NCBI GenBank assembly: GCA_951812955.1
Contig: OX638340.1
Span: 1,248,001 to 1,312,000, forward strand
Direction: 5' to 3'
DNA from: an uncultured Gemmatimonadota bacterium
Lineage (GTDB): Bacteria > JAAXHH01
Length of the DNA stretch: 64,000 nucleotides
The notes below the pieces were generated by a model. It had not been told where the DNA came from and searched no databases. It saw nothing but the letters and a program-made list of their open reading frames with translations. Position numbers and translations under genes: made by a program. Positions 2,207 to 56,759 of the stretch are shown here, in pieces. Each line of letters begins with the position of its first letter. Position 1 is the stretch's first letter.

Positions 2207-2308
2207 CGAGGTTCCTACCCCGTTACCTTCCGATCCGCCTCGAGGTTCCTACCCCGTTACCTTCCGATCCGCCTCGAGGTTCCTACCCCGTTTCCTTCCG
2301 ATCCGCCT
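2207..2308. repeat. 34-bp tandem direct repeat x3 (cgaggttcctaccccgttaccttccgatccgcct); third copy overlaps the stop and last 8 codons of the convergent permease gene
   Basis: Read directly. Copies 1-2 are identical; copy 3 differs by tt/ta and contains the TAG stop (cta on plus) of the minus-strand APC permease. Confidence 0.85.
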
Positions 2309-3638
2309 CCCGATTGATCCTGCGAAACAGCAGGTACAGGGGATAACTCAGGACGACCACGACGAGCGCCGTCAGGCTGACTCCCGTGCCGCCCATGATA
2401 TTGCCTGCCAGAAACGCCAGGGCGGCGGCGAGTGTCAGTGCCGTGGTCCACGGATATCCCCAGGCACGATAAGGCCGGGGAAGGTCCGGTTCCTTTCGTC
2501 TGAGGATAAAAACGGAAAGGAACAGGATGGCGTAGTTGACCACGGTAAAGAACGCCAGGGCCTCCACCAGCCGCACGAAACTCCCGCTGAACAGCAGGAA
2601 GATGATCGTAGCCGCCAGGCTGGCCAGGAGCGCCACTGTAGGCGTGCCGCCCTTGTTAACGCGGCGGCACTGCCAAAAGAAGAGTCCATCGGTGCTCATG
2701 GCGTAAATCACACGGGCCGCAAACATGTACCCCAGGTTGATCCCCACGATCATGAACCCGGTCACAAAGGCTGTGATGAGTGTCTCCGCGAGTGGCCCGA
2801 AAACGGCTTCCACGGCCCGGCCCACGGCCAGTTCGGCCCCCACGATTTCCGACATGGGCAGCATGCGTAGAACGGCTATGTTGATGAGCAGATACACCGC
2901 GATGACGATCCCGACGCCCATGAACATCGACCGGGGAATCGTCCTGCCGGGGTCTTCCATCTCCTCCGAAAAGTAAGCGGTGAATACCCAGCCATCATAC
3001 GCGTAAAGCACCCCTCTCAGCGCCACGATGAAGGCAACGACCACGGTCCATCCCGTGGGCATGGACGGAGAAGCGGCCGCCTCGACCTCCGAACCTTCAC
3101 TACCCGTCAGCAGGAAGCAGGCGATGATGAGCACGGCGAAGATGACCGCCTTGATCATGCTGGCGACGTTGTGCACGCCGGTTCCCCATTTCACGCCCCT
3201 CCACTGAATCACGGCGAAAGAAACCGCGATTCCCAGGCAAAGCGATAGGCTGAACTGGGGTATGCCTGCGTTGAGGAGATGTAGATACTCGTTGATCACG
3301 ATGATGGTCATGGCTGTCGCGCCGCACCAGTTCAACCAGTCGGTCCAACCGCTGACGAACCCGACGAAGGGTCCGAGGGTCCGGTGTGCGTAGACGTAGT
3401 AGGCGCCGGCGCGCGGCAGTGCTGTGGCCAACTCGGCGGCGGAAGCCGTGCTGAATATCACGAACACACCCGCCGCTATCCAGGTGGCCATGTACCACCA
3501 CGGATCGGGCAGCTGGGCCGCCACTTCACCCGGCGCTCTGAGAATGCCGAGGCTGACGATGCCGCCGAAGGTGATGGCCAGTCCCGTGATCAGGCCGAGG
3601 ACGCGCAGCAGCCCGCCAGGGGAAGACGAGGAAGACAT
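2283..3638 (-). CDS. APC-superfamily amino acid permease
   Basis: 451 aa with ~12 hydrophobic segments and typical APC N-terminus (GLITGLAITFGGIVSLGILRAPGE). ATG start confirmed. Confidence 0.8.
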   Translation of the reverse strand: MSSSSSPGGLLRVLGLITGLAITFGGIVSLGILRAPGEVAAQLPDPWWYMATWIAAGVFVIFSTASAAELATALPRAGAYYVYAHRTLGPFVGFVSGWTDWLNWCGATAMTIIVINEYLHLLNAGIPQFSLSLCLGIAVSFAVIQWRGVKWGTGVHNVASMIKAVIFAVLIIACFLLTGSEGSEVEAAASPSMPTGWTVVVAFIVALRGVLYAYDGWVFTAYFSEEMEDPGRTIPRSMFMGVGIVIAVYLLINIAVLRMLPMSEIVGAELAVGRAVEAVFGPLAETLITAFVTGFMIVGINLGYMFAARVIYAMSTDGLFFWQCRRVNKGGTPTVALLASLAATIIFLLFSGSFVRLVEALAFFTVVNYAILFLSVFILRRKEPDLPRPYRAWGYPWTTALTLAAALAFLAGNIMGGTGVSLTALVVVVLSYPLYLLFRRINREADRKETG

Positions 3639-4040
3639 AGTAGAAGCCTTAATTCAGAAGAAGGATCGGTCGGAGTCTTTGATAGTTGAATCGTTACGTA
3701 CCCTGGGATTCAAAGCGCTCCGTCAATATGGTTCGACGGAAATCATGAAACAAGGGTTTACCCGTTGGCGATAGATCGCGTCAGGTCAGCATCGCTCAAT
3801 CCTGTGGTGACAAACTTAATTACAGCTTCCGGTGCACCTGCTCCGATTCTGTTTTACCACGTCGGGCAAGAGGGTTTGCTAGCCAAGGCGATGCGGTTTA
3901 TATTGACCGCGCGCGGGATATCGCAGATTGATTGTCCTGCCTGCACAGAATGAACTTATTCTAATGTTTTTGTGGGTGCGTCCACGCTCCTGAACCTGAT
4001 GAGTTTAACCCTTAAAAGCTGGACACAGGGCATTGGAATT

Positions 4041-5207
4041 ATGGATCTGCCACTGAAATACGGACTCAATCCCCATCAGCATCCCGCCCGGGTGACCCTG
4101 CCTCCCTCATCACCGCTGCGCGTGCTAAACGGCACACCAGGCTATGTCAATATCATCGACGCCATGGGCGCCTGGCAACTGGCACGGGAATTGAAACAGG
4201 CGACCGGAGTGCCGGGTGCGGCATCCTTCAAACACGCGAGTCCAGCCGGAGCGGCGATTGCCGGCGAACTTAGTGATACCTATCTTTCGTCCCAGTTTCT
4301 GGCCGGTAAGGCGTACTCACCGGGTGCTGCCGCCTATATCCGTGCCCGAGGCGGCGACCGCATGTGTTCCTTCGGGGACGCCGCGGCCGTGAGCGAGGTG
4401 GTGGACCGGACCCTGGCCAACTTGTTAAGGCGGGAAGTGTCCGACCTGATCATCGCGCCGGGATACGATAGGGACGCGTTGGAGATCCTCAGTGCAAAGA
4501 AGGGCGGAGGCTACCTCGTGCTGGAGATCGATCCGGACTACGAGCCGCCCGAGATAGAGCAGAGAACGCTGTTCGGTCTTCAACTGGAACAACCCCGCAA
4601 CGATGCAGCCATCAACCGGGATACTTTTTCCAATATCGTTACCGGCAATCGGGACATTCCGGATTCCGCCCTCGACACGCTCGTCGTGGCGACGATCGCG
4701 CTCAAATACACGCAGTCGAATTCCGTCTGCGTGGCCTACGACGGCCAGGTGATCGGCATGGGCGCGGGCCAGCAATCCCGGATTCACTGCACCCGGCTGG
4801 CCTGCGACAAGGCCGACAAGTGGTTCCTGCAACAGCATCCCCGGACACTGGATCTCCCCTTCCGCGAGGGACTCAAACGCACGAAAAAGACGAACCTCGT
4901 CGACCAGTACCTCCTGTGGGACCAACTTTCCACCACGGAGGAGAACCACAAGCTGGACGGCCTTTCGGCACGTCCGGCACCCATCTCTTCAGAAGAACGC
5001 CGGGAATACCTTGCCCGATTCGACGGAATCTGCCTGTCATCGGACGCCTACATACCCTTTCGCGACAACATCGACCGGGCCAGCCGGAGCAACGTGCAAT
5101 TCGTGGCGCAGACCGGCGGGTCGGCGGCGGATAAGGGCGTGACGGAAGCGGCCGATGAATACGGCATGGCGATGGTCCATACCGGGCTACGGCTGTTTTT
5201 GCACTAG
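4041..5207 (+). CDS. AICAR transformylase-like protein (PurH C-terminal AICARFT domain only, no MGS/IMP cyclohydrolase domain)
   Basis: LKYGLNPHQ, FKHASPAGAA, IAPGYDRDALEIL, PFRDNID and C-terminal GGSAADKGVTEAADEYGMAMVHTGLRLFLH align with PurH residues ~200-529. Start at the internal ATG (MDLPLKYGLNPHQ) chosen by the domain boundary; the ORF-track start at 3972 is possible. Confidence 0.75.
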   Translation: MDLPLKYGLNPHQHPARVTLPPSSPLRVLNGTPGYVNIIDAMGAWQLARELKQATGVPGAASFKHASPAGAAIAGELSDTYLSSQFLAGKAYSPGAAAYIRARGGDRMCSFGDAAAVSEVVDRTLANLLRREVSDLIIAPGYDRDALEILSAKKGGGYLVLEIDPDYEPPEIEQRTLFGLQLEQPRNDAAINRDTFSNIVTGNRDIPDSALDTLVVATIALKYTQSNSVCVAYDGQVIGMGAGQQSRIHCTRLACDKADKWFLQQHPRTLDLPFREGLKRTKKTNLVDQYLLWDQLSTTEENHKLDGLSARPAPISSEERREYLARFDGICLSSDAYIPFRDNIDRASRSNVQFVAQTGGSAADKGVTEAADEYGMAMVHTGLRLFLH

Positions 5208-5366
5208 CGACGGCCGTGGTGGCTTCTACTGTGACATTTCTTGCAGGACCACTTTCAATCGCACTGGAAAATCCGTCAGGATCCTTTCAACCCCCTTCTC
5301 GATGAAAGCCCGCAAGCTTCAGCGGTGTCCGCGAAGAAAACACGGACGGTAGTGAAAGGGCTTCGA

Positions 5367-6764
5367 GTGACACGCAAGCCGAATATCATCTATCTGCTGG
5401 CGGACGACTGGGGATACGGGGATGTAAGCTGTCTCAATCCCGATTCCAAAATCCCGACGCTGCATACCGATCGGCTCGCAGGCGAAGGGATGGTGTTTAC
5501 GGATGCCCACAGCAATTCCGCGGTATGCACGCCCACGCGATACGGCGTGCTGACGGGACGTTACTGCTGGCGATCGCGGCTGAAGCGCGGGGTCTTGAAC
5601 GGCTATTCCGAACCGTTGATCGAGGAGGGACGCATGACGGTCCCTACGCTGCTTCGCGACCAGGGATATACGACGGCCTGCGTGGGCAAGTGGCACCTGG
5701 GACTGGGCTGGCAGACCTCCGGAGGAGTGGAGACGGTAAATAAGGAGACGGTGCGTTTCTCCGCTCCTTTGTCCCATGGTCCCCATACGGTGGGATTCGA
5801 CCATTCATACATCATCCCGGCGTCCCTCGATATGGAGCCCTACTGCTATATCGAAGATGGGGAGGTCGTGGAGCTTTCGGTCGAAGAGATAGCGGACTCG
5901 CCTCGGCCGGCCTTTTGGCGTGGAGGGGCCTGCGCGCCGGGGTTTTCCCATGAGACCTGCCTGCTGGAACTGACGATGCGGGCCGAGGGATTTATCCATC
6001 GGCACGCGAAAGAACATGGCGATCGGCCATTCTTTCTTTACTTCCCCGCACCTTCTCCCCATACGCCTCATTTTTCGCGAGACCGATTTGCCGGCCGGAG
6101 CCAGGCGGGCGTGTATGGAGATTACGTGACGGAGCACGACTGGAGTATCGGGCGAATCCTGGAGGCGGTGAAGCGCAATGGCCTGGAGGAGAATACGCTG
6201 ATTATCGTGACGAGTGACAATGGCTGCCACGCAGAGCCTATCGGGTTGAAGGAAAAGTATGATCACCTTGGAAATTACGTTTTCCGGGGTCAGAAGTCAG
6301 ATGCCTGGGACGGCGGTCACCGCATCCCGTTTATCGCGTCGTGGCCGGGCGTGATCGAACCAGGGTCACGATGTGAAAAGACGGTTTGTCTGACGGATCT
6401 GCTTGCGACCGTTGCCGGGATCTGCGAAGTGGACCTGCCGGTAGACGCCGGCGAAGACAGCTGCAATATCCTGCCCTATCTGCGGGGCGAACAGGCAGAG
6501 ACGATCCGTGAAGCGACGGTGCATCACTCGATCAGCGGGGAATTCGCCATACGGAAGGACAGGTGGAAGCTGGTAGAATGCCGCGGTTCGGGTGGGTGGA
6601 CCCTGAAAGAATCGGATGTGCCCGGGGATGCGCCGCCGATGCAACTCTACGATATGGTTTCCGATCCGGGAGAACGGTTAAACCTGTTTAGCAAAAAGCC
6701 CGGTGTGGTCGAGGATTTGCTCGACACGCTGAATCGGTACCGGACCGGCGGCCGGAGCACGTGA
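5367..6764 (+). CDS. formylglycine-dependent sulfatase (arylsulfatase family), no signal peptide
   Basis: NIIYLLADDWGYGD...CTPTRYGVLTGRY (CxPxR) and ...GKWHLG. The ORF-track start at 5241 is TTG. GTG at 5367 (VTRKPNIIYL) has AAAGGG 7 nt upstream; GTG at 5352 is also possible. No hydrophobic N-terminal segment in any version. Confidence 0.8.
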   Translation: MTRKPNIIYLLADDWGYGDVSCLNPDSKIPTLHTDRLAGEGMVFTDAHSNSAVCTPTRYGVLTGRYCWRSRLKRGVLNGYSEPLIEEGRMTVPTLLRDQGYTTACVGKWHLGLGWQTSGGVETVNKETVRFSAPLSHGPHTVGFDHSYIIPASLDMEPYCYIEDGEVVELSVEEIADSPRPAFWRGGACAPGFSHETCLLELTMRAEGFIHRHAKEHGDRPFFLYFPAPSPHTPHFSRDRFAGRSQAGVYGDYVTEHDWSIGRILEAVKRNGLEENTLIIVTSDNGCHAEPIGLKEKYDHLGNYVFRGQKSDAWDGGHRIPFIASWPGVIEPGSRCEKTVCLTDLLATVAGICEVDLPVDAGEDSCNILPYLRGEQAETIREATVHHSISGEFAIRKDRWKLVECRGSGGWTLKESDVPGDAPPMQLYDMVSDPGERLNLFSKKPGVVEDLLDTLNRYRTGGRST

Positions 6765-6765
6765 A

Positions 6766-6850
6766 ACCGCGAGGTAGGTGAGACCTTCGAATCAGGTAAG
6801 GCCGCGAGGTACTTGAGACCGCGAGGCAGGGTAGGCCGCGAGGTACGTGA
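6766..6850. repeat. 4 degenerate copies of a ~20-bp unit centred on CCGCGAGGTA, starting at the sulfatase stop codon
   Basis: Read directly: gtgaAACCGCGAGGTAggtgaga / gtaaGGCCGCGAGGTActtgaga / CCGCGAGGcagggtag / GCCGCGAGGTAcgtgagc, ending at the AAGGAG RBS of the next sulfatase. Confidence 0.55.
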
Positions 6851-6869
6851 GCAAAGGAGTGTGGATGCG

Positions 6870-8714: not shown

Positions 8715-8774
8715 AGCCGGCCTGCTGTTCGACTATCTGTGGCTCGGATCGAATGTGAAACCGAAGCGTAAGAC

Positions 8775-11289: not shown

Positions 11290-11302
11290 CCACTGCAATA
11301 GC

Positions 11303-19472: not shown

Positions 19473-20948
19473 ATGTCCATAGTCAAGACCAGCGTAAGCC
19501 ATCCAATCCGCGTCGATGCAGTACGTCCGAGGGACGGTTTCGGCCAGATCGGCGTCACCCTGTGTCCCGGCAAAAAGTATCCCTGGGGAATTGCGGGGAA
19601 CTGGGAACGCGACCTGTGCCTGGACCTCGAAAGGATCAGAAAGTGGGGCGCGACGGCGGTAGTCAGCCTGATCACCGAGGAGGAAATACGGGACCTGCAA
19701 GTTCAGGACATCTCAAGGGCGGTTGCGGACCGCCATATGGAGTGGTGGCACCTGCCCATCCCGGACGGGCAGCCACCCGGACCAGACTTCGAAAAAGCCT
19801 GGGTTCATGCGGGAGCGGCCATCCGGGACCGCCTGCGACTCGGATTCGACGTGCTCGTCCATTGTAAGGGCGGCCTGGGCCGCGCGGGTACGGTCGCCGC
19901 GCGGTTGCTCGTTGAGTTCGGCGAAAATCCGGACGAAGCGATACGGCGCGTTCGAGCGGCACGCTCGCAAAACGCCCTCGAAACGCGCGACCAGGAACGC
20001 CACGTAAAGCAATGCGCGCGGGCAGCGCCCACTCGACCCGTCACGACAGAAGAAAGCATCCGGGACCGCGCGATCGGCGCCTTCCTGGGTCTCGCGGTAG
20101 GGGACGCGGTCGGCACGACGCTCGAGTTCCGGGGCCGCGACGCGCAGGAGCGGGTGGACGATATGGTAGGCGGTGGTCCGTTCAATCTGTCAGCCGGCGA
20201 ATGGACCGACGACACCACCATGGCGCTGGCCCTGGCCGACAGTCTCGCCGAATGCGGGACGCTCGATTGCCGGGACCTGATGGACCGGTTCGTCCGATGG
20301 TGGAAGAAAGGCGAATACTCATGCACCGGGAGTTGCTTCGACATCGGGAATACCACGAGCGCGGCGCTTTCACGCTATGTGCGGACAGACGATCCGATCG
20401 CTGGTTCCACCGAATCCCGCGCCGCGGGAAACGGTTCGCTGATGCGGCTCGCCCCGGTCGCACTGCGCTACTGGGACGACCGCGCCTTGCTCGACGCCAC
20501 GGCGGCAGAACAGTCCCGGACCACCCACGGGTCCGAGGAGGCGGTGGACGCCTGCCGGGCCTTCGCGGAACTGCTTGCGGACGCCATCGCGGGCAAAGCA
20601 CGGGTGGAAGTCCTCGCCCCGAGGTCCTTCGATGGAGCACCGGCCGTCGCCCGGATTCTTGGTGGTAGCTGGCGCGGCCTTGCCCGGAGAAAGATCAGTT
20701 CGAGCGGATATGTGATAGACACCATGGAAGCCGCGTTATGGTCCGTCGCCCGCACCTCCGATTTCCGGGGCGCCGTGCTGCTCGCGGCCAACCTGGCTGA
20801 TGACGCCGACACGGTCGCCGCGGTGACGGGGCAGCTCGCCGGAGCGCTCTACGGCCTGAGCGGCATTCCCGGCGACTGGCTTGATCAGGTCGCGTGGAAG
20901 GATCGACTCCTGGACGTGGCGGGCCGATTGACGAGCAGAACCATCTGA
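19473..20948 (+). CDS. two-domain protein: N-terminal Cys-based protein-tyrosine/dual-specificity phosphatase-like domain (HCKGGLGRAG, CX5R) fused to C-terminal ADP-ribosylglycohydrolase (ARH/DraG family)
   Basis: VLVHCKGGLGRAGT P-loop in domain 1. AIGAFLGLAVGDAVGTTLEF, GEWTDDTTMALALADSL, SGYVIDTMEAALW and DADTVAAVTGQLAGALYG ARH signatures in domain 2. Confidence 0.75.
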   Translation: MSIVKTSVSHPIRVDAVRPRDGFGQIGVTLCPGKKYPWGIAGNWERDLCLDLERIRKWGATAVVSLITEEEIRDLQVQDISRAVADRHMEWWHLPIPDGQPPGPDFEKAWVHAGAAIRDRLRLGFDVLVHCKGGLGRAGTVAARLLVEFGENPDEAIRRVRAARSQNALETRDQERHVKQCARAAPTRPVTTEESIRDRAIGAFLGLAVGDAVGTTLEFRGRDAQERVDDMVGGGPFNLSAGEWTDDTTMALALADSLAECGTLDCRDLMDRFVRWWKKGEYSCTGSCFDIGNTTSAALSRYVRTDDPIAGSTESRAAGNGSLMRLAPVALRYWDDRALLDATAAEQSRTTHGSEEAVDACRAFAELLADAIAGKARVEVLAPRSFDGAPAVARILGGSWRGLARRKISSSGYVIDTMEAALWSVARTSDFRGAVLLAANLADDADTVAAVTGQLAGALYGLSGIPGDWLDQVAWKDRLLDVAGRLTSRTI

Positions 20949-21037
20949 CCTCTGCCCCTGGACCACATTCACAGGCTCTTGTATCTGCTATACTCTGACC
21001 GATTGACGAGCAGGACGAATTGACCTCTGTACAACCC
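20919..21037. repeat. spaced direct repeat (~33 bp x2, ~80 bp apart): copy 1 is the 3' end plus stop of the phosphatase-ARH gene, copy 2 lies downstream
   Basis: ccgattgacgagcagaaccatctgacctctg versus ccgattgacgagcaggacgaattgacctctg. Confidence 0.6.
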
Positions 21038-21175: not shown

Positions 21176-22441
21176 ATGGCGGAATCCCTGGCAATCGACG
21201 GCGGAACACCGGTCCGCACGCAACAGTGGCCTCCGCTCATACCCGGTGGATCGGTTTACGGGGAAGAGGAAAAACAGGCCGCCATCGAAGTCATCGAGGC
21301 CCGTTCTCCTTTCCGTTACTACGGCATAGAGTCCCTGGGCAAGGTCGACCGGTTCGAAGCGGCCTACGCCCGGTACGTCGGCACCCGCTTCGCCCTGGCA
21401 ACCCACAGCGGAAGCACAGCGCTCTCCGTGGCCCTCGCCGCCCTCGACGTGGGTCCGGGCACGGAAGTCATCATGCCGGCCTTCATGTGGATCGCCGACG
21501 TCAACGCGGTCGTGCATCTGCGTGCCGTGCCGGTCCTCGCCGACATCGACGAAACGCTGAACCTCGACCCCGGTGACATTGAACGCCGCATCACGCCCCG
21601 CACCCGGGTCATCATCGCCGTCCACATGGCCGGAACGGCCGCCGACATGCCCGCCATCCTGGAGGTGGCGGACCGGCACGGGATCCCCGTGCTCGAGGAT
21701 TGCTCCCAGGCGGCGGGCGCGCGCATCGGAGGGCGGCCCGTGGGATCCATGGGCAAGGCCGGTGCCGTCAGCCTGCAGTACAACAAAAATTTCACCACCG
21801 GCGAAGGCGGGATGATTACGACGGACGACGATGAAGTCTACCGCCGGGCGGTCTGCTTCCACGACACGGGTTTCGAACGGGATCTCGAAGGGGTTTCGAC
21901 CGGAGAGGACTCGGCGTTCGAGACCTTTGGCATGGGCGTCCGCATGGACGAACTCCGCGGCGCGGTAGGCCTGGTCCAACTGGAGAAGTTGCCCGGCATC
22001 CTGGAAGGCATGCGACGCCATCAGGACAGGTTGCGCGAGACGCTCGGCAGGACGCCCGGTATCCAGCTTCGCCGCATCGCCGATCCCGAAGGCGACAGCG
22101 GGGCCTATTTCTCCTGGATTCATGATTCGGCGGAAGCGGCCGCCCGTTTCACCGCGGCCGTCAGGGCGGAAGGCATCCCTGCTGGAGAGCCCCACGGCGG
22201 CATTCACCAGTACAGGTACATGTCCAACCTGCTGAACAAGGCGCCGGTGACGACGGCCGGATGCCCCTGGACCTGTCCATTCAACTCCGAAAGCCCTATG
22301 GAATACCGCGCCGGCATGCTGCCGCGCAGCGACGATCTGCTGGACCGGGCGCGCATCCTGCCGTTGCCCGCACAGTTGACCGAAGAAGACGTGGACGACG
22401 TGATCCGGGCGTTCCGCAAGGTAGCGCGGGCCGTCCTGTAG
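21176..22441 (+). CDS. DegT/DnrJ/EryC1/StrS-family PLP-dependent aminotransferase
   Basis: AIEVIEARSPFRYYG..., ATHSGSTALSVAL, QYNKNFTTGEGGMITT (PLP lysine block). The minus ORF 20969..22207 is its shadow. Confidence 0.85.
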   Translation: MAESLAIDGGTPVRTQQWPPLIPGGSVYGEEEKQAAIEVIEARSPFRYYGIESLGKVDRFEAAYARYVGTRFALATHSGSTALSVALAALDVGPGTEVIMPAFMWIADVNAVVHLRAVPVLADIDETLNLDPGDIERRITPRTRVIIAVHMAGTAADMPAILEVADRHGIPVLEDCSQAAGARIGGRPVGSMGKAGAVSLQYNKNFTTGEGGMITTDDDEVYRRAVCFHDTGFERDLEGVSTGEDSAFETFGMGVRMDELRGAVGLVQLEKLPGILEGMRRHQDRLRETLGRTPGIQLRRIADPEGDSGAYFSWIHDSAEAAARFTAAVRAEGIPAGEPHGGIHQYRYMSNLLNKAPVTTAGCPWTCPFNSESPMEYRAGMLPRSDDLLDRARILPLPAQLTEEDVDDVIRAFRKVARAVL

Positions 22442-22506
22442 CGTGATCGAATCCGTAGTGCAACTTTATCAGGGCGTTCCGCAAGGTAGCGCGGGCCGTC
22501 CTGAAA
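22405..22506. repeat. spaced direct repeat (~32 bp x2): 3' end of the DegT gene duplicated ~66 bp downstream
   Basis: gggcgttccgcaaggtagcgcgggccgtcctg occurs at the gene terminus (followed by TAG) and again in the intergenic region. Confidence 0.6.
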
Positions 22507-24803: not shown

Positions 24804-24876
24804 GGGATTGACGGAAATTCGCACACGCAACCGCTCGCGTACCTGATGCATGAAGTCTGGGTCACAAAGCACGTCG

Positions 24877-25077
24877 TCTCGAGCCGTGTCGTTATGAGCC
24901 GCGTCGATCAATGGACACGTAAGCGCAAGCTGCGGAGTCATGAGCCGCGTTGATCAATGGACACGTATGCGCAAGCTGCGGAGTCATGAGCCGCGTTGAT
25001 CAATGGACACGTATGCGCAAGCTACGGAGTCATGAGCCGCGTTGATCTCAGACTGCGCGTCATGAGCAGCGTCGAGT
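24877..25077. repeat. 46-bp tandem direct repeat, ~4 copies (tcatgagccgcgttgatcaatggacacgtatgcgcaagctgcggag), degenerate at both ends
   Basis: Read directly. Period of 46 bp measured between successive tcatgagccgcg occurrences. Confidence 0.85.
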
Positions 25078-26295: not shown

Positions 26296-26392
26296 CGAAA
26301 AGCGCATCAAGGTGTGCAACGTATGAGAAGCGCATCAAGGTGTGCAACGTATGAGAAGCGCATCAAGGTGTGCAGCTTATGAGAAGCGTGTA
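26296..26392. repeat. 30-bp tandem direct repeat x3 (agcgcatcaaggtgtgcaacgtatgagaag)
   Basis: Read directly. The third copy has 2 substitutions. Confidence 0.85.
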
Positions 26393-29661: not shown

Positions 29662-30053
29662 CGGAGCCGGTCTGGATAGAAACACGCGATGCACTGATGT
29701 TGCACGAGCGCCTTATTGTGCTACACGGTGGTGCGGCGGGGGTGCGCGACAAAGGCTTGCTGCAATCAGCTCTGGCCCGAGCGCGTCAAATCTACGCGTA
29801 TTCGGATACGCCAGATCTCATCGAAATGGCGACGGCCTATACAGTGAGCATCGTGCGCAACCATCCATTTGTAGATGGCAACAAGCGTACCGGCTTTGTA
29901 GTCGGAATCCTGTTTCTTGAGCTGAACGGATTTCACTTCACCGCCACTCAAGCGTGCGCGGCTCAGTCCGTTATAGAACTAGCAGGCGGGTCACTTGATG
30001 AAGCGGGCTACACGGCGTTCCTGCGCGCGAATGTCGAAACGCTGAAAGGATGA
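29658..30053 (+). CDS. doc: Doc-family toxin (Fic/Doc fold)
   Basis: HPFVDGNKRTGF (Doc variant of the Fic motif), LHERLIVLHGG. GTG start overlapping the antitoxin stop (GTGA). Confidence 0.85.
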   Translation: MTEPVWIETRDALMLHERLIVLHGGAAGVRDKGLLQSALARARQIYAYSDTPDLIEMATAYTVSIVRNHPFVDGNKRTGFVVGILFLELNGFHFTATQACAAQSVIELAGGSLDEAGYTAFLRANVETLKG

Positions 30054-30061
30054 ACGGAACG

Positions 30062-30130
30062 CGGAGCGATGAAACGAAAGTGGAGCGATGAAACGAACAT
30101 AGAGCGGTGAGCGGTGAACGGAACACGGAG
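30062..30130. repeat. short direct repeats (ggagcgatgaaacgaa x2 plus related gagcggtgaacggaac copies) downstream of doc
   Basis: Read directly. Degenerate. Confidence 0.4.
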
Positions 30131-30212
30131 CGATGACATCACATCTGCAACGCCCAACCGCCGCCACAACAAGCCTTAAGTCAGACCCTAAATCTGGAGG
30201 AATGGAGGGAAC

Positions 30213-34402: not shown

Positions 34403-34431
34403 TTGACAATATGCACACATTGTGTGATAAT
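34403..34431 (+). promoter_or_regulatory. sigma70-like promoter TTGACA-N17-GATAAT with embedded 14-bp perfect palindrome CACACAATTGTGTG, 6 nt upstream of the brnT ATG
   Basis: Read directly. The palindrome between -35 and -10 is a plausible autoregulatory operator for the BrnT/BrnA pair. No SD, so the mRNA may be leaderless. Confidence 0.45.
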
Positions 34432-34437
34432 TGACGT

Positions 34438-34994: not shown

Positions 34995-35514
34995 GCCGAA
35001 TAAACTGCCTTCGCCTCCACTAATTTAGTAGTAATTAGTATTATATTGGTAGTGAGGAACTGGTATTCCTTGTATCACGTGAAAATCTACAATGAGAATA
35101 CCCAAGACACCTCCCGATTTCGCTGACCTGATCACTTTCTGGTCGACAAGAACGGCAACCAATTCAGTTATGATCTGGTAGACCCTATCCCCAGTTTCTT
35201 ACACGCGAAGAGTTGCCAGGGATAAAGGGTCATAAGTCAGACAGCCCGTACGGATCTGCTGGAGCTTTACGAGCGCGGACTCTTCAGCAAGCAGAAGATA
35301 GGCAGGAAGTGGGTTTTCGATGCACCGGAAGATTTGGAGGAGAGGCTGGCTGGTTAACCAGGCTAGTCCTTTGCCACCCCTGGTCGACACTCGAAGCAGA
35401 CATCCCGAAGTAAAAATCCGATGATGGACAGATTTGCCTCTGTCTCCATCGCCGCACCGTAATCCTTAAATCCATCCAATCACATCAGCCGGCTTCAAAT
35501 CTCAGACTCGCTAC

Positions 35515-36544: not shown

Positions 36545-36636
36545 CGACCTGGATGCCCACCTCAGTTTGACCTGGATGCCCACCTCAGCTTGACCTGCAT
36601 GCCCATCTCAATCCTGCCTGCATACCCATCTCAGAA
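36545..36636. repeat. 23-bp tandem repeat x4 (gacctggatgcccacctcagttt), progressively degenerate; the last copy overlaps the TonB-dependent receptor stop codon
   Basis: Read directly. Confidence 0.7.
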
Positions 36637-39600
36637 CGTATACCTTACCCCAATCTGGACCTGCCACCTGGATGAGAGGTTGGTAGTCTGGAACACGTCC
36701 TCACGGTCGATTTTCCCATCTTCGTTGGCGTCCCGGACCCGGAGGTCCAGGTCCGGCCTGCCCTGTTCGTCGTATCCGTCGAAATTGAACAGGCCTGCGG
36801 CGTCGAACAGCACGTAGCGGCTCTGACCCCAGGCGCCGTTGATCAGGTTGGCCAGGTTCAACACGTCCAGCGTCAATTCGAAGTGGTGGGTCCGAATCGA
36901 GGGCAGTTCCTGGATCAGGCGCAGGTCCAACCGGTTTCGCCACGGCGAGCGGGACGCGTTGCGTTTGACGATGGCGCCCCGGGCCGCGCGCAAAACGGGA
37001 TCGGAATCGACAAAAGCGTCGATCGCCCTCCACTCGTCGTCGGTTACCATTGCGCTGACGTCGCTCCTGCTCGCCGGGATGTAGGCGAGGTCGTTGCCCC
37101 TTATGCCGTCGCCGTTCACGTCGTCGGCGTACATGTAGCTGTAGGGATCTCCCGCGCTGCCTTCGTAAAAGAGGGAGAGCGTCGTGGCGAGTCCCCGTCC
37201 GAATTCGTATTTCCATGACCCGGTGGCCAGGACCCGGTGACGGACTTCGAAATCGGACGTTGCGGTCGTCTCGCCGTTGGGGTCGTCGGTCTCGTTGTAC
37301 TGCCAGTTGGAGATGGCGCGGCTGGACCGTCCGCTGTTGACGTCCTCGGCGTCCTGGAACACGTAGGCGACGCTTCCGAAGAGCCCGGGCAGAAAGGACG
37401 CGTTCCCTCTCTTGCGTAGGCGCAGTGTCAGGTTGAACTGGCGCCCCTTGTCCGTGTTCTCCAGGAGTATGACATTGGTGAAATCGCCGCTGACCGTCTT
37501 CCCAGCGTAGTCGGACCGGCCGTCCGGAGTCCTTCCCGTCGGGCGGCCGTTGTCGCCGATGTTGAGGTTGCGGAAACGGACCTCGTCGATGTTACGGGCA
37601 AGCAGGAGTTCCACGGTTCCGACCAGATCCAGGGGCAGTCTGCGGTCGAGGGCGAGGTTGGCGCGAAAAACCCGGGGCAGCCGAAATTCCGGGTCGATGA
37701 CGTTTACCTCCGAGGTCTCGGGCGCGTCGAGACGGCCATCCAGCGGAAGCGGTTGCGCGAAAGGATCCGCCACGAACGCAGGAACGTCCTGGTCCCGGAA
37801 GGATGCAAGATCGATGCGGGTGAAATCCACCCCCGTGTTGCTGTACGCGTTGGAGAGCCAAACGGCCGGCGGCAGCCCCGCGAAAACCCCGCCGCCGCCG
37901 CGGAACTGCGTCCCGCGGTCCCCTCCCGCGTCGAAGTTGAACCCGAAGCGCGGCGACCAGAGGATCCGGCCGCCCGGAGTCCGGTCCGTCCGATGTCCGG
38001 CGAACTGGCGGGCGAATCGGTCGTTGGACAGAGGTTTGTCCGGCAGGATCGGCACTTCGGCCCGCAATCCGAATTTCACGCTGAGCCGAGGACTGATCCG
38101 CCAATTGTCCTGCGCGTAGAATCCCATCTGCACGTAGTCCCACGCGGCGCGGGGCTGTTCGACGCCGGGCACCATAGATCGGCTAAGGAGGTAGCGGGTA
38201 GGCTCACCACGCTCAAAGGCCTCGATGCCGTCGAACTCGTAGGCGCCGTAGTAGTCCTGAATGAACAGGTTGTCGAAAGAAATGAACTCGTTGTGCGTGC
38301 CGATCGTTATGGTATGATCCGCCCTGAACAGGTGAAGGTCGTTGGTGAATTCGAAGGTGTCCTGGTTCAGCGCGTTGGCCTGGGAGAACCGCTCCACGCC
38401 AAGCCGGACCTCGCCGAGGAACGCTCCGCCTGCCTCTTCGAGGTCGATCTGTACCTGGGGGAAGGTGCCGGACAGCGGCGACCTGCTGTCCCGCACGCGG
38501 CTGTAGGACAACCGAGCTTCATTGGCCAGGCTGCCGGAGAAAGTGCTGTTGAGTTGCGCGACCGTGGACTGGGTGACGTTATCGCGTGTAAACTGGTTGC
38601 TGGTCAGTGTAAAGATTGTGCGACCCCGGCGCAATCCGTCGTCCAGGTCGCCGGTTACATAGTTGTGGCGCAGGGTGAGCCGGTGCCTGGAAGACAGGTT
38701 GACGTCAAGCCGCCCGAAGAATTTCTCATTACGCGTGCGCTGAGAAAAGGGATCGAATCCCCCGGCATCATAGCCGTAATTGTCGCGGGCGATGTCCACG
38801 ATTTGCTGAAGGGCAGCCGACCCGGCGCCGAAACGGATGGGCTGGCCTGAATCCGCGGGACCGACGCTCGAAGGACTTGCACGCCGCCGCAGTTCACCGT
38901 TGATGAAGAAGAAAACCCGGTTGGTGACCAACGGTCCACCAAGCCGAAAACCAAGCTGATAGTCGGCAAAATCTCCGAATTTGTCGCCTTCCAGGTCCCC
39001 CACCAGGGATTCGTTCCGGCCGAAATAGTACAGGGAGCCGCGGAACCGGTTCGTTCCACTGCGCGTTACCGCGTTGATGAGCCCGCCCGCGAATCCACCC
39101 GAACGGACGTCAAAGGGCGCCACCTGGACCTGAAACTCTTCGATGGCATCGAGGCTGATCAGCTGGGCATTCACCTGCCCTGTGGGCAGACCCTCGTTCG
39201 ACAGCCCGAAGGCATCGTTCAGCACGGCGCCGTCCACCTGGAAGTTGTTCATGCGGTTGTTCTTACCCGCGATACTTTGCCCGCCGGCTTTCGACGCCGC
39301 TTCAGGCGCCAGCCGGGTATAGTCCTGTATGCTCCGGGCAATGGATGGCAGCCGGGCGATTTCGTTGGCCGTGACGTGGGTCTCGGTTCCGATGTTCGAT
39401 GCGTTGAGCACCTCGTCCCTGTGGGCTGTGACGACGACTGCCTCGGTCTCGATGACGTCCTCGCGCAACCCGAAGTTCACACGCAGGTTCTGCCCCATCG
39501 ACAGGGTTACATCCCGGCGGACAGCGGTTTGATATCCGATATAACTGACTCGTATCTCGTACGGACCGCCGGTCCTGAGTCCCGCAATGTTGTACCGCCC

Positions 39601-39792
39601 GTCGGCACGGGAAAACACGCCTGAAGAGACTCCCGTGGGCTCATGCAGGGCGATCACGGTGGCGTCAGGGAGCGGCGCACCATTGTCATCCAGAATCCTG
39701 CCGTTGAGCGTCGCGGTTGTAATGCCCTGCGCGTTGACCAGGGTCGATGTGGGAAGGACCAGAATCAGAATAGTTCGGAGCAAGATACGCAT
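36631..39792 (-). CDS. TonB-dependent receptor with N-terminal carboxypeptidase-regulatory-like domain
   Basis: Signal peptide MRILLRTILILVLPTSTLVNAQG. TLNGRILDDNGAPLPDATV...RYNIAGL (CarbopepD_reg). Plug (TAHRDEVLNASNIGTETHV). 1053 aa ending ...WQVQIGVRYTF (C-terminal Phe). Confidence 0.9.
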   Translation of the reverse strand: MRILLRTILILVLPTSTLVNAQGITTATLNGRILDDNGAPLPDATVIALHEPTGVSSGVFSRADGRYNIAGLRTGGPYEIRVSYIGYQTAVRRDVTLSMGQNLRVNFGLREDVIETEAVVVTAHRDEVLNASNIGTETHVTANEIARLPSIARSIQDYTRLAPEAASKAGGQSIAGKNNRMNNFQVDGAVLNDAFGLSNEGLPTGQVNAQLISLDAIEEFQVQVAPFDVRSGGFAGGLINAVTRSGTNRFRGSLYYFGRNESLVGDLEGDKFGDFADYQLGFRLGGPLVTNRVFFFINGELRRRASPSSVGPADSGQPIRFGAGSAALQQIVDIARDNYGYDAGGFDPFSQRTRNEKFFGRLDVNLSSRHRLTLRHNYVTGDLDDGLRRGRTIFTLTSNQFTRDNVTQSTVAQLNSTFSGSLANEARLSYSRVRDSRSPLSGTFPQVQIDLEEAGGAFLGEVRLGVERFSQANALNQDTFEFTNDLHLFRADHTITIGTHNEFISFDNLFIQDYYGAYEFDGIEAFERGEPTRYLLSRSMVPGVEQPRAAWDYVQMGFYAQDNWRISPRLSVKFGLRAEVPILPDKPLSNDRFARQFAGHRTDRTPGGRILWSPRFGFNFDAGGDRGTQFRGGGGVFAGLPPAVWLSNAYSNTGVDFTRIDLASFRDQDVPAFVADPFAQPLPLDGRLDAPETSEVNVIDPEFRLPRVFRANLALDRRLPLDLVGTVELLLARNIDEVRFRNLNIGDNGRPTGRTPDGRSDYAGKTVSGDFTNVILLENTDKGRQFNLTLRLRKRGNASFLPGLFGSVAYVFQDAEDVNSGRSSRAISNWQYNETDDPNGETTATSDFEVRHRVLATGSWKYEFGRGLATTLSLFYEGSAGDPYSYMYADDVNGDGIRGNDLAYIPASRSDVSAMVTDDEWRAIDAFVDSDPVLRAARGAIVKRNASRSPWRNRLDLRLIQELPSIRTHHFELTLDVLNLANLINGAWGQSRYVLFDAAGLFNFDGYDEQGRPDLDLRVRDANEDGKIDREDVFQTTNLSSRWQVQIGVRYTF

Positions 39793-39915
39793 GGCTGGTT
39801 ATGTCCCGGATCGATAAATCGTTGCACAATATCACGAATGTCGAATATAATACCCCACAAGCCTGAAAACGACACGGAACTTCGATGCGCTTTCGTAAAA
39901 TGGCAAATCGGTGCC

Positions 39916-40029
39916 GGTCACACAGAGCCTGGCCGCCTGTCACACAGAACCTGGCCGCCGGTCACGCAGAGCCCGGCTTCATGTCATGTACAGCCGACCT
40001 CATGTCACGTATAGCCCGACCTCCTGACC
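39916..40029. repeat. 22-bp tandem repeat x5 (ggtcacacagagcctggccgcc), each unit beginning (T/G)GTCA(C/T)
   Basis: Read directly. Lies in the divergent intergenic region between the TonB-dependent receptor (minus) and uxuA (plus); the last copy is ~40 bp upstream of the uxuA ATG. Confidence 0.8.
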
Positions 40030-40065
40030 AGTCCTATAGGTCGTATACCAGAAAAGGAGCCTGCC

Positions 40066-41076
40066 ATGGCGTTGATGGAAATTGAACCCGGTCTCAAGAT
40101 CGCGGGTCAGATGTCTCCCGAACCGACGCGGGAAGACCTGGAGTTCGCCCAGCAGTTGGGCATAGAATACGTCTGTCTGTGGACGGACGGTGAACACGCG
40201 AACTACGACTATTTCATGAGCCGCAGGGAGATCTACGAGGAAGCAGGCATCAAGATCTACGGATTCGGCAACAGCGACGTGCACAACCAGGATGCCATTG
40301 TGCTCAACCTGCCGAACCGGGACGCGAAAGTGGAGCAGTACAAGAGATACATTCGCGACCTCGGCAGGGCGGGCATCCCCTATACGACGTACGCACACAT
40401 GGGCAACGGAATCTGGAGCACGGAGCGGGAGACCACCCGCGGCGGCGCCCCGGCCCGGGGTTTCGACCTGGCCAGCGCCGAGGAGGGGCACTGGGGCGGC
40501 CGGTTGTTCAGGATGCCGCTGACCCACGGACGAGTGTACAGCGAGGACGAAATATGGGACAATTTCGCCCATTTCGTCGGTGAAGTCGCGCCCGTCGCCG
40601 AAGAGGCCGGCGTCCGGATCGGCATTCATCCGGACGATCCTCCCCAGCCGGAACTCGGCGGCATTCCGCGGTGTATTTTCAGCAGTTTCGACGGCTATTA
40701 CCGGGCCATGGAGATCGCCGACAGCCCGAACGTGGGGCTCTGCTTCTGTATCGGCTGCTGGCTAGAGGGCGGATCGCTGATGGGCAGGGGCGTGGAAGAT
40801 TCGCTGCGACATTTCGGCGAACAGGGCAAGGTCTTCAAGGTCCACTACCGCAACGTGGACCAGCCGCTGCCTCATTTCGTGGAGACCTTCATCGATAACG
40901 GATATTTCGACATGTACCAGGCCGCGCGGGTCCTGGAAGAAACCGGCTTCTACGGGGTCATGATTCCTGATCACATTCCCGAGATGGCGGGAGACGGCCG
41001 GATCGGCTACGCCTACTCGATCGCGTACATGAAGGCGCACGCGGACCGGGCGAGAGCGGAATGCGCCGCCGCGTAA
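40066..41076 (+). CDS. uxuA: D-mannonate dehydratase
   Basis: VAEEAGVRIGIHPDDPP matches UxuA VAEEVGVRMAVHPDDPP, plus overall xylose-isomerase-like TIM-barrel blocks. AAGGAG RBS. Confidence 0.85.
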   Translation: MALMEIEPGLKIAGQMSPEPTREDLEFAQQLGIEYVCLWTDGEHANYDYFMSRREIYEEAGIKIYGFGNSDVHNQDAIVLNLPNRDAKVEQYKRYIRDLGRAGIPYTTYAHMGNGIWSTERETTRGGAPARGFDLASAEEGHWGGRLFRMPLTHGRVYSEDEIWDNFAHFVGEVAPVAEEAGVRIGIHPDDPPQPELGGIPRCIFSSFDGYYRAMEIADSPNVGLCFCIGCWLEGGSLMGRGVEDSLRHFGEQGKVFKVHYRNVDQPLPHFVETFIDNGYFDMYQAARVLEETGFYGVMIPDHIPEMAGDGRIGYAYSIAYMKAHADRARAECAAA

Positions 41077-41119
41077 GTGTATAGCGGGCCGGGCGAGAGC
41101 AAAGTGCGCCGCCGCGTAA
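41046..41119. repeat. spaced direct repeat (~31 bp x2): uxuA 3' terminus plus TAA duplicated ~43 bp downstream
   Basis: cgggcgagagcggaatgcgccgccgcgtaag versus cgggcgagagcaaagtgcgccgccgcgtaag. Confidence 0.6.
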
Positions 41120-56749: not shown

Positions 56750-56759
56750 CCGAGCCCGG

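What the first reader, a model, noticed from the sequence alone, without database searches (positions are those of the whole stretch)
2207..41119. Recurrent duplication of gene 3' termini (stop codon included) immediately downstream of the gene
At six loci a segment covering the last ~8-10 codons plus the stop codon is repeated downstream:
- APC permease: 34 bp, three tandem copies at 2207-2308.
- Sulfatase 1: stop-adjacent CCGCGAGGTA units at 6766-6850.
- Phosphatase-ARH gene: two copies 80 bp apart at 20919-21037.
- DegT gene: two copies 66 bp apart at 22405-22506.
- TonB-dependent receptor: 23 bp, four tandem copies at 36545-36636.
- uxuA: two copies 43 bp apart at 41046-41119.
The spaced cases are not simple A-B-A-B tandem duplications, because the spacer is not repeated after the second copy. 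Possible explanations are a slippage or template-switch bias of this organism's replisome at convergent or terminating transcription units, a tiny insertion-excision scar, or a strain-heterogeneity artefact of metagenome assembly.
Basis: seen in the sequence. Interest (0 to 1): 0.55.

Follow-up and report, generated by a model that had tools for sequence, protein, structure and literature searches.

The report
Slippage duplications spilling over stop codons
The repeated gene ends are real short tandem duplications made by DNA-replication slippage; they persist where they do no harm, between genes or across a stop codon, and are unusually common in this sponge-symbiont lineage, but they are a known kind of repeat.

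Summary
All six repeats exist at the stated coordinates. Four (APC permease, phosphatase-ARH, DegT, uxuA) copy the last 8-14 codons plus the stop. The sulfatase and TonB-receptor arrays overlap only the stop and 1-5 further bases. They belong to a larger set: at least 14 intergenic arrays in 64 kb, 8 of which reach a stop codon.

The window comes from a sponge-associated Latescibacterota/Gemmatimonadota-labelled clade. In that clade about 12% of gene ends are re-found downstream, against about 1-3% in control loci. 5' ends stay at background.

Each unit is specific to its locus. At the APC site, related assemblies carry 1, 2 or 3 copies of the 34-nt unit, and these include long-read assemblies. 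The single-copy form is flanked by GAGG...GAGG. A single-copy DegT relative has TGAT...TGAT 44 nt apart, which matches the 44-nt duplication seen elsewhere. Indels inside genes among the three closest relatives are all multiples of three.

A simple placement model predicts 6.9-7.4 stop-including arrays out of 14; 8 were observed.

Verdict: these are microhomology-mediated tandem duplications (VNTR-like) filtered by selection. They are not an assembly artefact, an excision scar or a mobile element, and no mechanism specific to 3' ends is needed. The cause of the clade-wide excess is unknown.

The parts
2204..2309 (-). 34-nt unit x 3.1. The gene-proximal copy (2272-2309) holds the last 8 codons and TAG stop (2283-2285) of the APC permease gene 2283-3638(-). 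It lies in the convergent intergenic region with gene 696-2147(+).
   Evidence: Relatives have 1 copy (L088-L095), 2 copies (L086, L087, L096) or 3 copies (window). The single-copy form is flanked by GAGG...GAGG.
6759..6851 (+). 17/34-nt array (CCGCGAGGTA-containing units) between sulfatase 1 (stop 6762-6764) and sulfatase 2 (start 6870, SD 6853-6859). It overlaps only ACGTGA of the upstream gene.
   Evidence: The window has one 16-nt unit more than L096.
20924..21029 (+). Two copies (20924-20954, 20999-21029; 87% identical; 75 nt apart) of the last 7 codons plus TGA of the phosphatase-ADP-ribosylglycohydrolase gene 19473-20948. The spacer starts with a decayed CCCTGGACC remnant of the unit.
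   Evidence: Relatives have 17-nt arrays (L003, L008, L009) or a 54-nt duplication (L007) at the same gene end, and single copy in L010, L012, L014 and L025.
22398..22503 (+). Two copies (22398-22438, 22463-22503; 93% identical) of the last 13 codons of the DegT aminotransferase gene 21176-22441. The first copy is followed directly by the TAG stop. A degenerate middle copy (GTGATCGAATCCGTAG) lies between them.
   Evidence: Simple 43-45-nt tandem form in L005, L006, L008 and L011, and three copies in L018. Single-copy L010 has TGAT...TGAT 44 nt apart.
24870..25047 (+). 46-nt unit x 3.3, wholly intergenic, in a 686-nt spacer. Absent from L002.
26297..26388 (+). 28-nt unit x 3.2, wholly intergenic, 43 nt after the creatininase gene stop (26252-26254).
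30038..30136 (+). 19/26-nt units containing GATGA. The first unit includes the TGA stop (30051-30053) of the Fic-domain gene.
36546..36634 (-). 23-nt unit x 3.8 directly downstream of the TonB-dependent receptor gene 36631-39792(-). It overlaps only the stop and one base (CTGA).
   Evidence: L082 has a different 15-16-nt array at the same place.
39913..40023 (.). 22-nt unit x 4.7 in the divergent promoter region between the TonB-receptor and uxuA-like genes. It touches no gene end.
   Evidence: Absent from L082.
41041..41124 (+). 43-nt unit x 2.0. It contains the last 11 codons plus TAA (41074-41076) of the uxuA-like gene 40066-41076.
   Evidence: L082 has a single copy.
44932..45024 (+). 44-nt unit x 2.1 starting at the first base after the TAA of the GFO/IDH/MocA oxidoreductase gene (43813-44931). 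Each unit holds a small hairpin.
55080..55167 (+). 15-nt match (CGCCGCCCGGGCGGG) at the amidohydrolase gene end (55080-55094; stop 55102-55104) and again at 55153-55167. This is a weak, decayed case, and the match itself does not include the stop.
56145..56193 (+). 23-nt unit x 2.1, wholly intergenic, 14 nt after the stop of the NHL-repeat gene.
56755..56864 (+). 40-nt unit x 2.7, wholly intergenic. It starts 6 nt after the stop at 56747-56749 and ends 28 nt before the next start codon.
62814..62871 (+). 18-nt unit x 3.2, wholly intergenic. It ends at the base before the ATG (62872) of the sodium:solute symporter gene.

Best explanation
The repeats are locus-specific minisatellites made by microhomology-mediated tandem duplication, that is, replication slippage between 3-6-nt direct repeats that lie 17-75 nt apart. 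Arrays then expand, contract and decay.

Duplications probably arise everywhere, and selection removes those that damage a gene. Inside genes only in-frame ones survive. Those that disturb a ribosome-binding site or start codon are lost.

A duplication that starts in the last codons of a gene and runs past its stop leaves the protein unchanged and is tolerated. The original spacers here are short (about 20-80 nt) compared with the duplicated unit. Many of the tolerated duplications therefore have to include the upstream gene's 3' end and stop codon. The 'spaced' cases are older arrays in which an inner copy has decayed or has been pushed apart by nested duplications.

Shown here:
- The repeats themselves and the fact that each unit is local to its site.
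- The 1/2/3-copy series at the APC site.
- Microhomology arms at two sites.
- The multiple-of-three rule for indels inside genes.
- The fit of the placement model.
- The excess in this clade.

Inferred: slippage as the molecular event, and selection as the cause of the asymmetry between 3' and 5' ends.
For: (1) Most repeats are head to tail: 81 of 102 repeat clusters in the clade have matched length at least 0.8 of a period.

(2) No unit occurs anywhere else in the window or in the fetched loci.

(3) APC site:
- Eight loci recovered from different assemblies (L088-L095), including a closed 3.9-Mb chromosome, carry one copy. It reads GAGG-N30-GAGG.
- L086 (hifiasm contig), L087 (SPAdes contig) and L096 carry two copies.
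- The window carries three.

(4) DegT site: single-copy L010 has TGAT at two positions 44 nt apart, and L005, L006, L008 and L011 carry a 43-45-nt tandem duplication starting at that TGAT.

(5) Indels against the three closest relatives (L086, L087, L096):
- Inside genes they measure 3, 9, 18, 24, 42 and 63 nt, and several (9, 18, 42, 63 nt) lie in or beside tandem arrays.
- Intergenic indels have any length (7, 10, 11, 16, 20, 34 nt).

(6) Tandem-repeat periods: within genes they are 21, 27 and 48 nt. Between genes they are 15, 17, 18, 19, 22, 23, 28, 34, 40, 43, 44 and 46 nt, only two of which (15 and 18) are multiples of three.

(7) Repeat coverage rises about 40 nt before stops, stays high for about 100 nt after them, and falls towards start codons. 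End scan:
- 3' ends: 5/44 in the window and 32/270 in relatives.
- 5' ends: 1/44 and 5/263. Three of those five are over-extended ORFs that run into the DegT repeat.

(8) The placement model with no 3'-end bias expects 6.9-7.4 +/- 1.5 stop-including arrays of 14, and 8 were observed.

(9) Tandem duplication by microhomology has been reported as universal in bacteria (bioRxiv 10.64898/2026.02.28.708716; PMC8639346).
Against: - Two window sites (ARH and DegT) are not head to tail as they stand. Reading the spacer as a decayed copy rests on short similarities and on relatives.
- Non-coding copies stay nearly identical to the coding copy while the sequence between them diverges, and they share lineage-specific bases: GGTAGCG in both copies in the window against GGTCGCG in both copies in L002. 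Simple neutral decay does not predict this. It requires gene conversion, repeated re-duplication or selection.
- The 3'/5' asymmetry is not significant in the window alone (p = 0.10), and the relatives are orthologous loci rather than independent samples.
- The model does not explain why this clade has 4-13 times more such duplications than the control loci.
- One intragenic indel against the more distant L088 is 5 nt long. It lies near the probable start of the DHDPS gene.
Confidence: 0.8

Rival explanations
1. A mutational hot spot specific to gene 3' ends. Replication or repair would stall where transcription or translation ends (R-loops, hairpins, collisions), so duplications arise preferentially at stop codons rather than merely surviving there.
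For: - The same gene ends (ARH, DegT, the aminotransferase at 23732) are duplicated in many species with different unit lengths and boundaries.
- The DegT unit contains a 10-bp GC-rich hairpin.
- 8 observed is slightly above the 6.9-7.4 expected.
Against: - The placement model without any hot spot already fits.
- Six of 14 arrays do not touch a stop, and one lies in a divergent promoter region.
- Duplications occur at an operon-internal junction with a 15-nt spacer.
- No terminator-like site lies in an array, and terminator counts are at shuffle level.
- In-frame tandem gains and losses also occur in the middle of genes.
Confidence: 0.1
2. The duplicated ends are functional and kept by selection. 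Possible roles are back-up stop signals, 3'-UTR elements that affect mRNA stability or termination, or copies that preserve the downstream gene's translation-initiation context after the spacer grew.
For: - At the gene 15/16 junction, a copy or remnant of the upstream gene end stays next to the downstream Shine-Dalgarno sequence in most lineages with an expanded spacer.
- The two DegT copies show concerted base changes.
- The second ARH copy is in frame and ends in its own stop.
Against: - Folding energies of 14 arrays scatter around those of shuffled sequence: z from -2.3 to +2.0, with only one below -2.
- No Rfam family matches any array.
- Unit lengths are mostly not multiples of three, so read-through would not reach the next stop in frame.
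- Copy number and unit differ among close relatives, and many relatives have a single copy.
- The genes involved are unrelated housekeeping enzymes and transporters.
Confidence: 0.06
3. Artefact of metagenome assembly. Strain variants of a gene end would have been laid side by side by the assembler.
For: The window is a mosaic relative to L086: 3 mismatches across 2322-12500, but about 2.5% divergence to the left of 2321. The break lies on the 34-nt array, so the third copy there could come from a chimeric join.
Against: - The same duplications and spacers are present in closed long-read chromosomes and in hifiasm and SPAdes contigs from other samples.
- Copies are diverged by up to 13-25%.
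- Arrays with 2 copies exist in three independent assemblies at the APC site.
Confidence: 0.02
4. Footprints of a small mobile element or of site-specific integration at gene 3' ends: target-site or att-site duplication, MITE/REP/MIRU-type units, a CRISPR-like array, or DGR-like repeats.
For: - The A-B-A layout at two sites resembles a duplicated target flanking an insert.
- A XerC/D-type recombinase gene (41142-42053) follows the uxuA duplication.
Against: - Units and spacers are unique to each locus.
- Spacers are 0-45 nt and contain remnants of the unit.
- L082 has the same uxuA-recombinase gene order with one copy.
- No cas gene, reverse transcriptase or transposase domain appears among the window's genes.
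- Mismatches between copies are not limited to adenines.
Confidence: 0.02

Closest known systems
Microhomology-mediated tandem duplications (MTDs) and the tandem repeats that grow from them (Dan et al. 2021, PMC8639346; Wei et al. 2026 preprint, 10.64898/2026.02.28.708716)
   Same: A single-copy segment flanked by a few identical bases becomes two or more head-to-tail copies. The change is reversible, copy number varies among close relatives, and units are specific to each locus. All of this is seen at the APC and DegT sites.
   Different: Those papers do not describe the recurrent inclusion of a gene's last codons and stop codon: neither term occurs in the preprint. They also do not describe a lineage in which about one gene end in eight carries such a duplication.
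Bacterial VNTR / minisatellite loci used for strain typing (own knowledge)
   Same: Intergenic arrays of 10-100-nt units whose copy number differs between strains. In-frame arrays inside genes are also known, and the window has one: the 21-nt array in the PALP gene.
   Different: The density here is high: 18.8 arrays with a period that is not a multiple of three per 100 kb in the window, against 3.4 in control loci.
Mycobacterial interspersed repetitive units (MIRUs)
   Same: Short tandem units at junctions between co-oriented genes that are arranged so that the flanking reading frames stay intact. The review PMC12548453 describes insertion at start codons with translational coupling.
   Different: MIRUs are one dispersed, apparently mobile family with related sequence at many loci, and they sit at start codons. 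Here every unit derives from its own locus, and arrays avoid start codons.
TAACTGA intergenic direct repeats of marine Beggiatoaceae (PMC4679880)
   Same: Intergenic direct repeats that contain stop codons and are abundant in one lineage (title and abstract listed).
   Different: That is a single 7-nt motif shared by about 170 sites in a genome. Here the units are 17-75 nt and unrelated between sites.

Membership tests
Microhomology-mediated tandem duplication / VNTR-type array | Copies lie head to tail without unrelated spacer | tested here: met
   Tandem Repeats Finder arrays. 81 of 102 repeat clusters in the clade have matched length at least 0.8 of a period. Exceptions in the window are the ARH, DegT and amidohydrolase sites.
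Microhomology-mediated tandem duplication / VNTR-type array | The single-copy allele carries short identical arms spaced by exactly one period | tested here: met
   APC site: GAGG-N30-GAGG in L088-L095, period 34. DegT site: TGAT...TGAT 44 nt apart in L010. Not testable at the other sites because no single-copy near relative was available.
Microhomology-mediated tandem duplication / VNTR-type array | Copy number differs among close relatives | tested here: met
   APC site: 1, 2 or 3 copies. uxuA: 2 copies in the window against 1 in L082. DegT: 1, 2 or 3 copies. A hexamer array has 1-2, 5 or about 12 copies.
Microhomology-mediated tandem duplication / VNTR-type array | The unit is derived from the local sequence and not shared between loci | tested here: met
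   blastn-short of 14 units against the window and the fetched loci found hits only at the home locus and its orthologues, apart from one borderline 15-nt match (E = 0.036) in an unrelated locus, L065.
Dispersed intergenic repeat families (REP/BIME, MITE, MIRU) | The same unit occurs at many unrelated loci, often with palindromic or inverted ends | tested here: not met
   No match between loci. Folding is no better than for shuffled sequence. A whole genome could not be searched.
CRISPR array | Three or more near-identical repeats separated by unique spacers of similar length, usually with cas genes | tested here: not met
   Arrays have no spacers, and the spaced cases have only two copies. 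No cas domain was found among the annotated genes.
Diversity-generating retroelement (variable/template repeat pair at a gene's 3' end) | The template copy differs from the gene copy at adenines only, with a reverse transcriptase gene nearby | tested here: not met
   Mismatches include A>G, C>G, T>A and C>T (family D18). No reverse transcriptase domain is present. The repeats are 30-45 nt long, not about 100-150 nt.
Integrated element with att-site duplication of a gene 3' end | The two copies flank cargo DNA that includes an integrase | tested here: not met
   Spacers are 0-45 nt. The recombinase gene next to uxuA lies outside the pair, and the gene order is the same in single-copy L082.
Intrinsic transcription terminators | GC-rich hairpin followed by a T run | tested here: not met
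   No terminator-like site lies within any array, and counts equal shuffle expectation: 20 against 17.0, 13 against 16.3, and 14 against 14.2.

The most novel reading that the evidence does not exclude
The excess is not only tolerated noise. Two readings remain open:
- This sponge-symbiont clade may have a heritable, strongly raised rate of microhomology-mediated duplication, for example through altered lagging-strand maturation or repair.
- The 3'-end duplications may be put to use. Copying the gene end would separate two signals that overlapped in a compact junction: the upstream gene's last codons and the downstream gene's translation-initiation context. Both copies would then be maintained by selection or gene conversion, and which copy is the coding one would occasionally swap.
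Probability: 0.12. Interest if true: 0.6.

Novelty: new member of a known kind. Interest (0 to 1): 0.3.

Why it matters
The finding gives a clean natural example of how selection shapes where slippage duplications can persist in a compact bacterial genome: in frame inside genes, any length between genes, and across stop codons but not across start codons.

It also has three practical consequences:
- Intergenic length and some protein C-termini in this clade are unstable.
- Copy number at such arrays can mislead strain-resolved assembly and can seed chimeric joins.
- These arrays could serve as strain markers for uncultured sponge symbionts.

If the clade-wide excess reflects a changed replication or repair function, the closed genomes now available would allow that to be tested.

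Tried and rejected
- Exact-protein look-ups for the uxuA-like and HisB proteins found nothing on record. The APC permease worked after a homology search.
- Rfam at gathering thresholds found only tRNA-Ala.
- Folding of 14 arrays gave no consistent structure signal.
- Promoter and terminator scans were at shuffle level, with no terminator in any array.
- My first start-codon heuristic, weighted by Shine-Dalgarno matches, picked internal starts. I dropped it in favour of a manual gene map for the window and the 5'-most start for relatives. The 5'-most start inflates 5' hits, which makes the comparison conservative.
- An attempt to read microhomology-arm length from the residual of the matched length failed because the extension overshoots. 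Arm evidence therefore rests on the two sites where single-copy relatives exist.
- A mantis mitogenome paper turned out not to be a close analogue.
- CRISPR, DGR, MITE/REP, att-site duplication and excision footprints were considered and rejected (see the membership tests).

Full report
**Observation.** All six repeats named in the finding are in the sequence at the stated coordinates.

Four of them copy the last codons of a gene together with its stop codon:
- APC permease (- strand, stop 2283-2285): 34 nt x 3.1 at 2204-2309.
- Phosphatase-ADP-ribosylglycohydrolase gene (stop 20946-20948): copies at 20924-20954 and 20999-21029, reading RLTSRTI* and RLTSRTN*.
- DegT (stop 22439-22441): copies at 22398-22438 and 22463-22503.
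- The uxuA-like gene (stop 41074-41076): 43 nt x 2.0.

Two sites are described too generously. The sulfatase array (6759-6851) shares only ACGTGA with the gene. The TonB-receptor array (36546-36634) shares only CTGA, and the protein ends ...GVRYTF*. The uxuA case is a plain tandem duplication, not a spaced one.

**Wider picture in the window.** The six sites are a subset of a larger population.
- Tandem Repeats Finder and the direct-repeat search list further intergenic arrays at 24870-25047 (46 nt), 26297-26388 (28 nt), 30038-30136 (19 nt, includes the Fic gene stop), 39913-40023 (22 nt, divergent promoter region), 44932-45024 (44 nt, starts right after a stop), 56145-56193 (23 nt), 56755-56864 (40 nt) and 62814-62871 (18 nt, ends at a start codon).
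- There is also a weak spaced repeat at the amidohydrolase gene end.
- The gene map rests on codon-position GC and Pfam.
- Arrays inside genes have periods of 21, 27 and 48 nt. Arrays between genes have periods of 15-46 nt, and all but two of these (15 and 18 nt) are not multiples of three.

**Source and relatives.** A scan of species-representative genomes with the DegT protein returned about 25 syntenic loci at 79-94% nucleotide identity.
- They come from sponge-associated metagenome-assembled genomes labelled Gemmatimonadetes or Candidatus Latescibacterota.
- Several are closed chromosomes of 3.7-3.9 Mb.
- A metagenome scan with the TonB receptor gave two more relatives.
- A homology search with the APC permease, followed by contig look-ups, gave eleven loci at 97-100% protein identity, including hifiasm and SPAdes contigs.

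**Is it more than chance, and is it specific to 3' ends?** I asked whether the last 30 nt of a gene, stop included, recur within 200 nt downstream. The threshold was the 99th percentile of internal 30-mers.

| Set | 3' ends | 5' ends (equivalent test) |
|---|---|---|
| Window | 5/44 (11.4%) | 1/44 |
| Clade relatives | 32/270 (11.9%) | 5/263 |
| High-GC loci of other phyla | 3/327 (0.9%) | 2/319 |
| Distant Latescibacterota (cruder gene caller) | 2/72 (2.8%) | not scanned |
| Low-GC loci of other phyla (cruder gene caller) | 4/173 (2.3%) | not scanned |

- Three of the five 5' hits in relatives are over-extended ORFs that run into the DegT repeat.
- Window against the high-GC controls gives Fisher p = 8e-4.
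- The 3'/5' contrast within the window alone gives p = 0.10.
- The relatives are orthologous loci and so are not independent samples.
- A metagene profile shows repeat coverage rising about 40 nt before stops, staying at 5-16% for about 100 nt after them, and falling to 1-4% at start codons.
- Arrays with a period that is not a multiple of three occur at 11 per 100 kb in the clade and 18.8 in the window. Other phyla have 3.4 and distant Latescibacterota 2.4.

**Comparative anatomy.**
- *APC site.* Eight loci from different assemblies of the OY762445 species carry one copy, which reads GAGG-N30-GAGG. L086, L087 and L096 carry two copies and the window three. This is the signature of a microhomology-mediated tandem duplication followed by expansion.
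- *DegT site.* L005, L006, L008 and L011 have a simple 43-45-nt tandem duplication and L018 has three copies. Single-copy L010 has TGAT twice, 44 nt apart, at the expected positions. The window and L002 share the 65-nt spaced form, and its spacer begins GTGATC... like the unit. I read that spacer as a decayed inner copy.
- *ARH site.* Relatives show 17-nt arrays, a 54-nt duplication, or a single copy.
- *Operon-internal junction at 23732/23748.* The window has a 15-nt spacer there. Many relatives carry 35-36-nt duplications of the upstream gene end, up to three copies, with nested repeats between them.
- *uxuA and the TonB receptor.* L082 has a single copy at uxuA, no 22-nt array, and a different 15-16-nt array after the TonB-receptor stop.
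- Each unit is confined to its own locus.

**Indel spectrum.** I aligned the window to L086, L087, L096 and L088.
- Against the three closest relatives (L086, L087, L096), indels inside genes are multiples of three: 3, 9, 18, 24, 42 and 63 nt. Several lie in or beside tandem arrays, for example a 21-nt coding array in the PALP gene.
- Intergenic indels have any length (7, 10, 11, 16, 20, 34 nt).
- Against the more distant L088 there is one 5-nt intragenic indel near a probable start site, a 20-nt one in the first gene, and two large deletions (132 and 295 nt) at the sulfatase-1 gene.
- Further spacers outside the window vary by gain and loss of 6-nt and 17-nt units. A 211-nt promoter-bearing spacer is constant in length.

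**Why stop codons?** Collapsing each array to one unit gives original spacers of about 20-200 nt, often shorter than or similar to the unit.
- In the model, a unit is placed uniformly among positions that keep both neighbouring genes and the last 10-20 nt before a start codon intact.
- That predicts 6.9-7.4 +/- 1.5 of the 14 arrays should include a stop codon; 8 do.
- No mutational preference for 3' ends is therefore required.
- The avoidance of start codons is most simply explained by selection against disturbing ribosome-binding sites. This step is an inference.

**Alternatives examined.**
- *Assembly artefact.* The architectures recur in independent long-read and short-read assemblies, which argues against it. 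One caveat remains. Relative to L086, the window has 3 mismatches over 2322-12500 but about 2.5% divergence on either side, and the left break lies on the 34-nt array. The third copy there could reflect a chimeric join or a natural recombination point.
- *Mobile elements, att duplication, CRISPR and DGR* all fail their defining tests.
- *RNA function.* There is no Rfam match, folding z-scores run from -2.3 to +2.0, and no terminator-like sites lie in the arrays.

**What remains unexplained.**
- The cause of the clade-wide excess cannot be addressed from 64 kb.
- Some separated copies evolve in concert. Both DegT copies read GGTAGCG in the window and GGTCGCG in L002.
- The window's non-coding ARH copy equals the coding copy of L002.
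- In L023 two copies 130 nt apart are 25/26 identical around unrelated sequence.
- Gene conversion or repeated loss and re-duplication would account for these last three points, and selection on the copy next to the downstream Shine-Dalgarno sequence is not excluded.

**Comparison with known systems and verdict.** The mechanism matches microhomology-mediated tandem duplication, recently reported as universal (10.64898/2026.02.28.708716; PMC8639346), and the arrays behave like VNTR loci.
- They differ from MIRUs, which are a dispersed family inserting at start codons (PMC12548453).
- They differ from the Beggiatoaceae TAACTGA repeats, which are one shared heptamer (PMC4679880).
- In four literature searches I found no description of recurrent stop-including duplications as a lineage-wide feature.
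- I rate this as a new member of a known kind. It is of modest interest, mainly as a clear illustration of selective filtering and as a practical caveat for assembly and annotation of these symbionts.

Noticed in passing
window 58598-58730: Upstream of the clpB gene (start 58801 or 58828) there is an exact sigma-54 promoter consensus, TGGCAC-N5-TTGCA, at 58715-58730. About 100 nt further upstream lie two palindromes, TGCCA-N3-TGGCA, at 58598-58610 and 58615-58627. They look like binding sites for an enhancer-binding protein. Tandem Repeats Finder had listed them as a 17-nt repeat.
   Followed up: partly
window 1-13640 versus L086 (ENA ERZ18545484 ptg000094l): The two sequences show mosaic identity: 3 mismatches in 2322-12500, about 2.5% divergence to the left of 2321, and about 2.6% beyond 12500. 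The left boundary coincides with the 34-nt array. This is either recombination between strains or a chimeric assembly join at the repeat.
   Followed up: partly
window 31200-32567: A mandelate racemase / enolase-superfamily gene is split into an N-domain ORF (31200-31961) and a C-domain ORF (31980-32567). It is a frameshifted or interrupted gene, or a sequencing error.
   Followed up: no
window 26425-27983: Two adjacent genes (26425-27105 and 27102-27983) encode Gly/Glu/His-rich repeat proteins built from 9-nt and 48-nt periodic units. They have no Pfam match. The L015 orthologue appears to start with a hydrophobic N-terminal segment.
   Followed up: no
window 10104-10144 (PALP-enzyme gene 9997-11289): There is an in-frame coding minisatellite of 21 nt. 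The window has 2 copies, L087 has 42 nt more and L096 has 63 nt more, so the N-terminal region of this enzyme varies in length among close relatives.
   Followed up: partly
L001 3412-5199 and L023 (same position after DegT): A 1.9-kb two-gene cassette is inserted between DegT and the next gene in two relatives and is absent from the window. It encodes an AAA_21/AAA_15 ATPase and a DUF4276 protein and looks like a defence-type module. These two relatives show no DegT 3'-end duplication.
   Followed up: partly
window 34307-35514: About 1.2 kb has lower GC (0.45-0.53 against 0.61 overall) and no confident gene. The only ORF (34321-34842, - strand) has atypical codon-position GC and no Pfam hit.
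   Followed up: no
window 52352-52389: A direct repeat TCTGCCATTAT(T/C) x 2.5 lies 30 nt upstream of the FAD oxidoreductase gene (52421). It shares TGCCATTAT with the clpB-upstream palindromes and may be a regulator binding site.
   Followed up: no
L088 (OY762445.1), orthologue of window 5241-6764: The sulfatase-1 gene of this closed genome lacks 132 + 295 nt relative to the window and is called as 310 aa instead of about 470-507 aa. It is probably a decaying gene.
   Followed up: no
L086/L087/L088/L096, downstream of the class-I aminoacyl-tRNA synthetase gene (outside the window's left edge): A hexamer array (CACCCG/TACCCG) has 1-2, 5, 6 or more, and about 12 copies in four close relatives. 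A 17-nt unit (CGCGAAGCCTCTCGCAC) is gained or lost in another spacer, whereas a 211-nt promoter-bearing spacer is invariant in length.
   Followed up: partly
window 19046-19119 (-) and 21081-21109 (+): tRNA-Ala(GGC) sits 7 nt upstream of the LysM/transglycosylase gene start. A sigma-70-like promoter (TTGAAT-17-TATAGT) upstream of DegT is conserved across all relatives. It follows a hairpin that shows compensatory changes between the window and L002.
   Followed up: no
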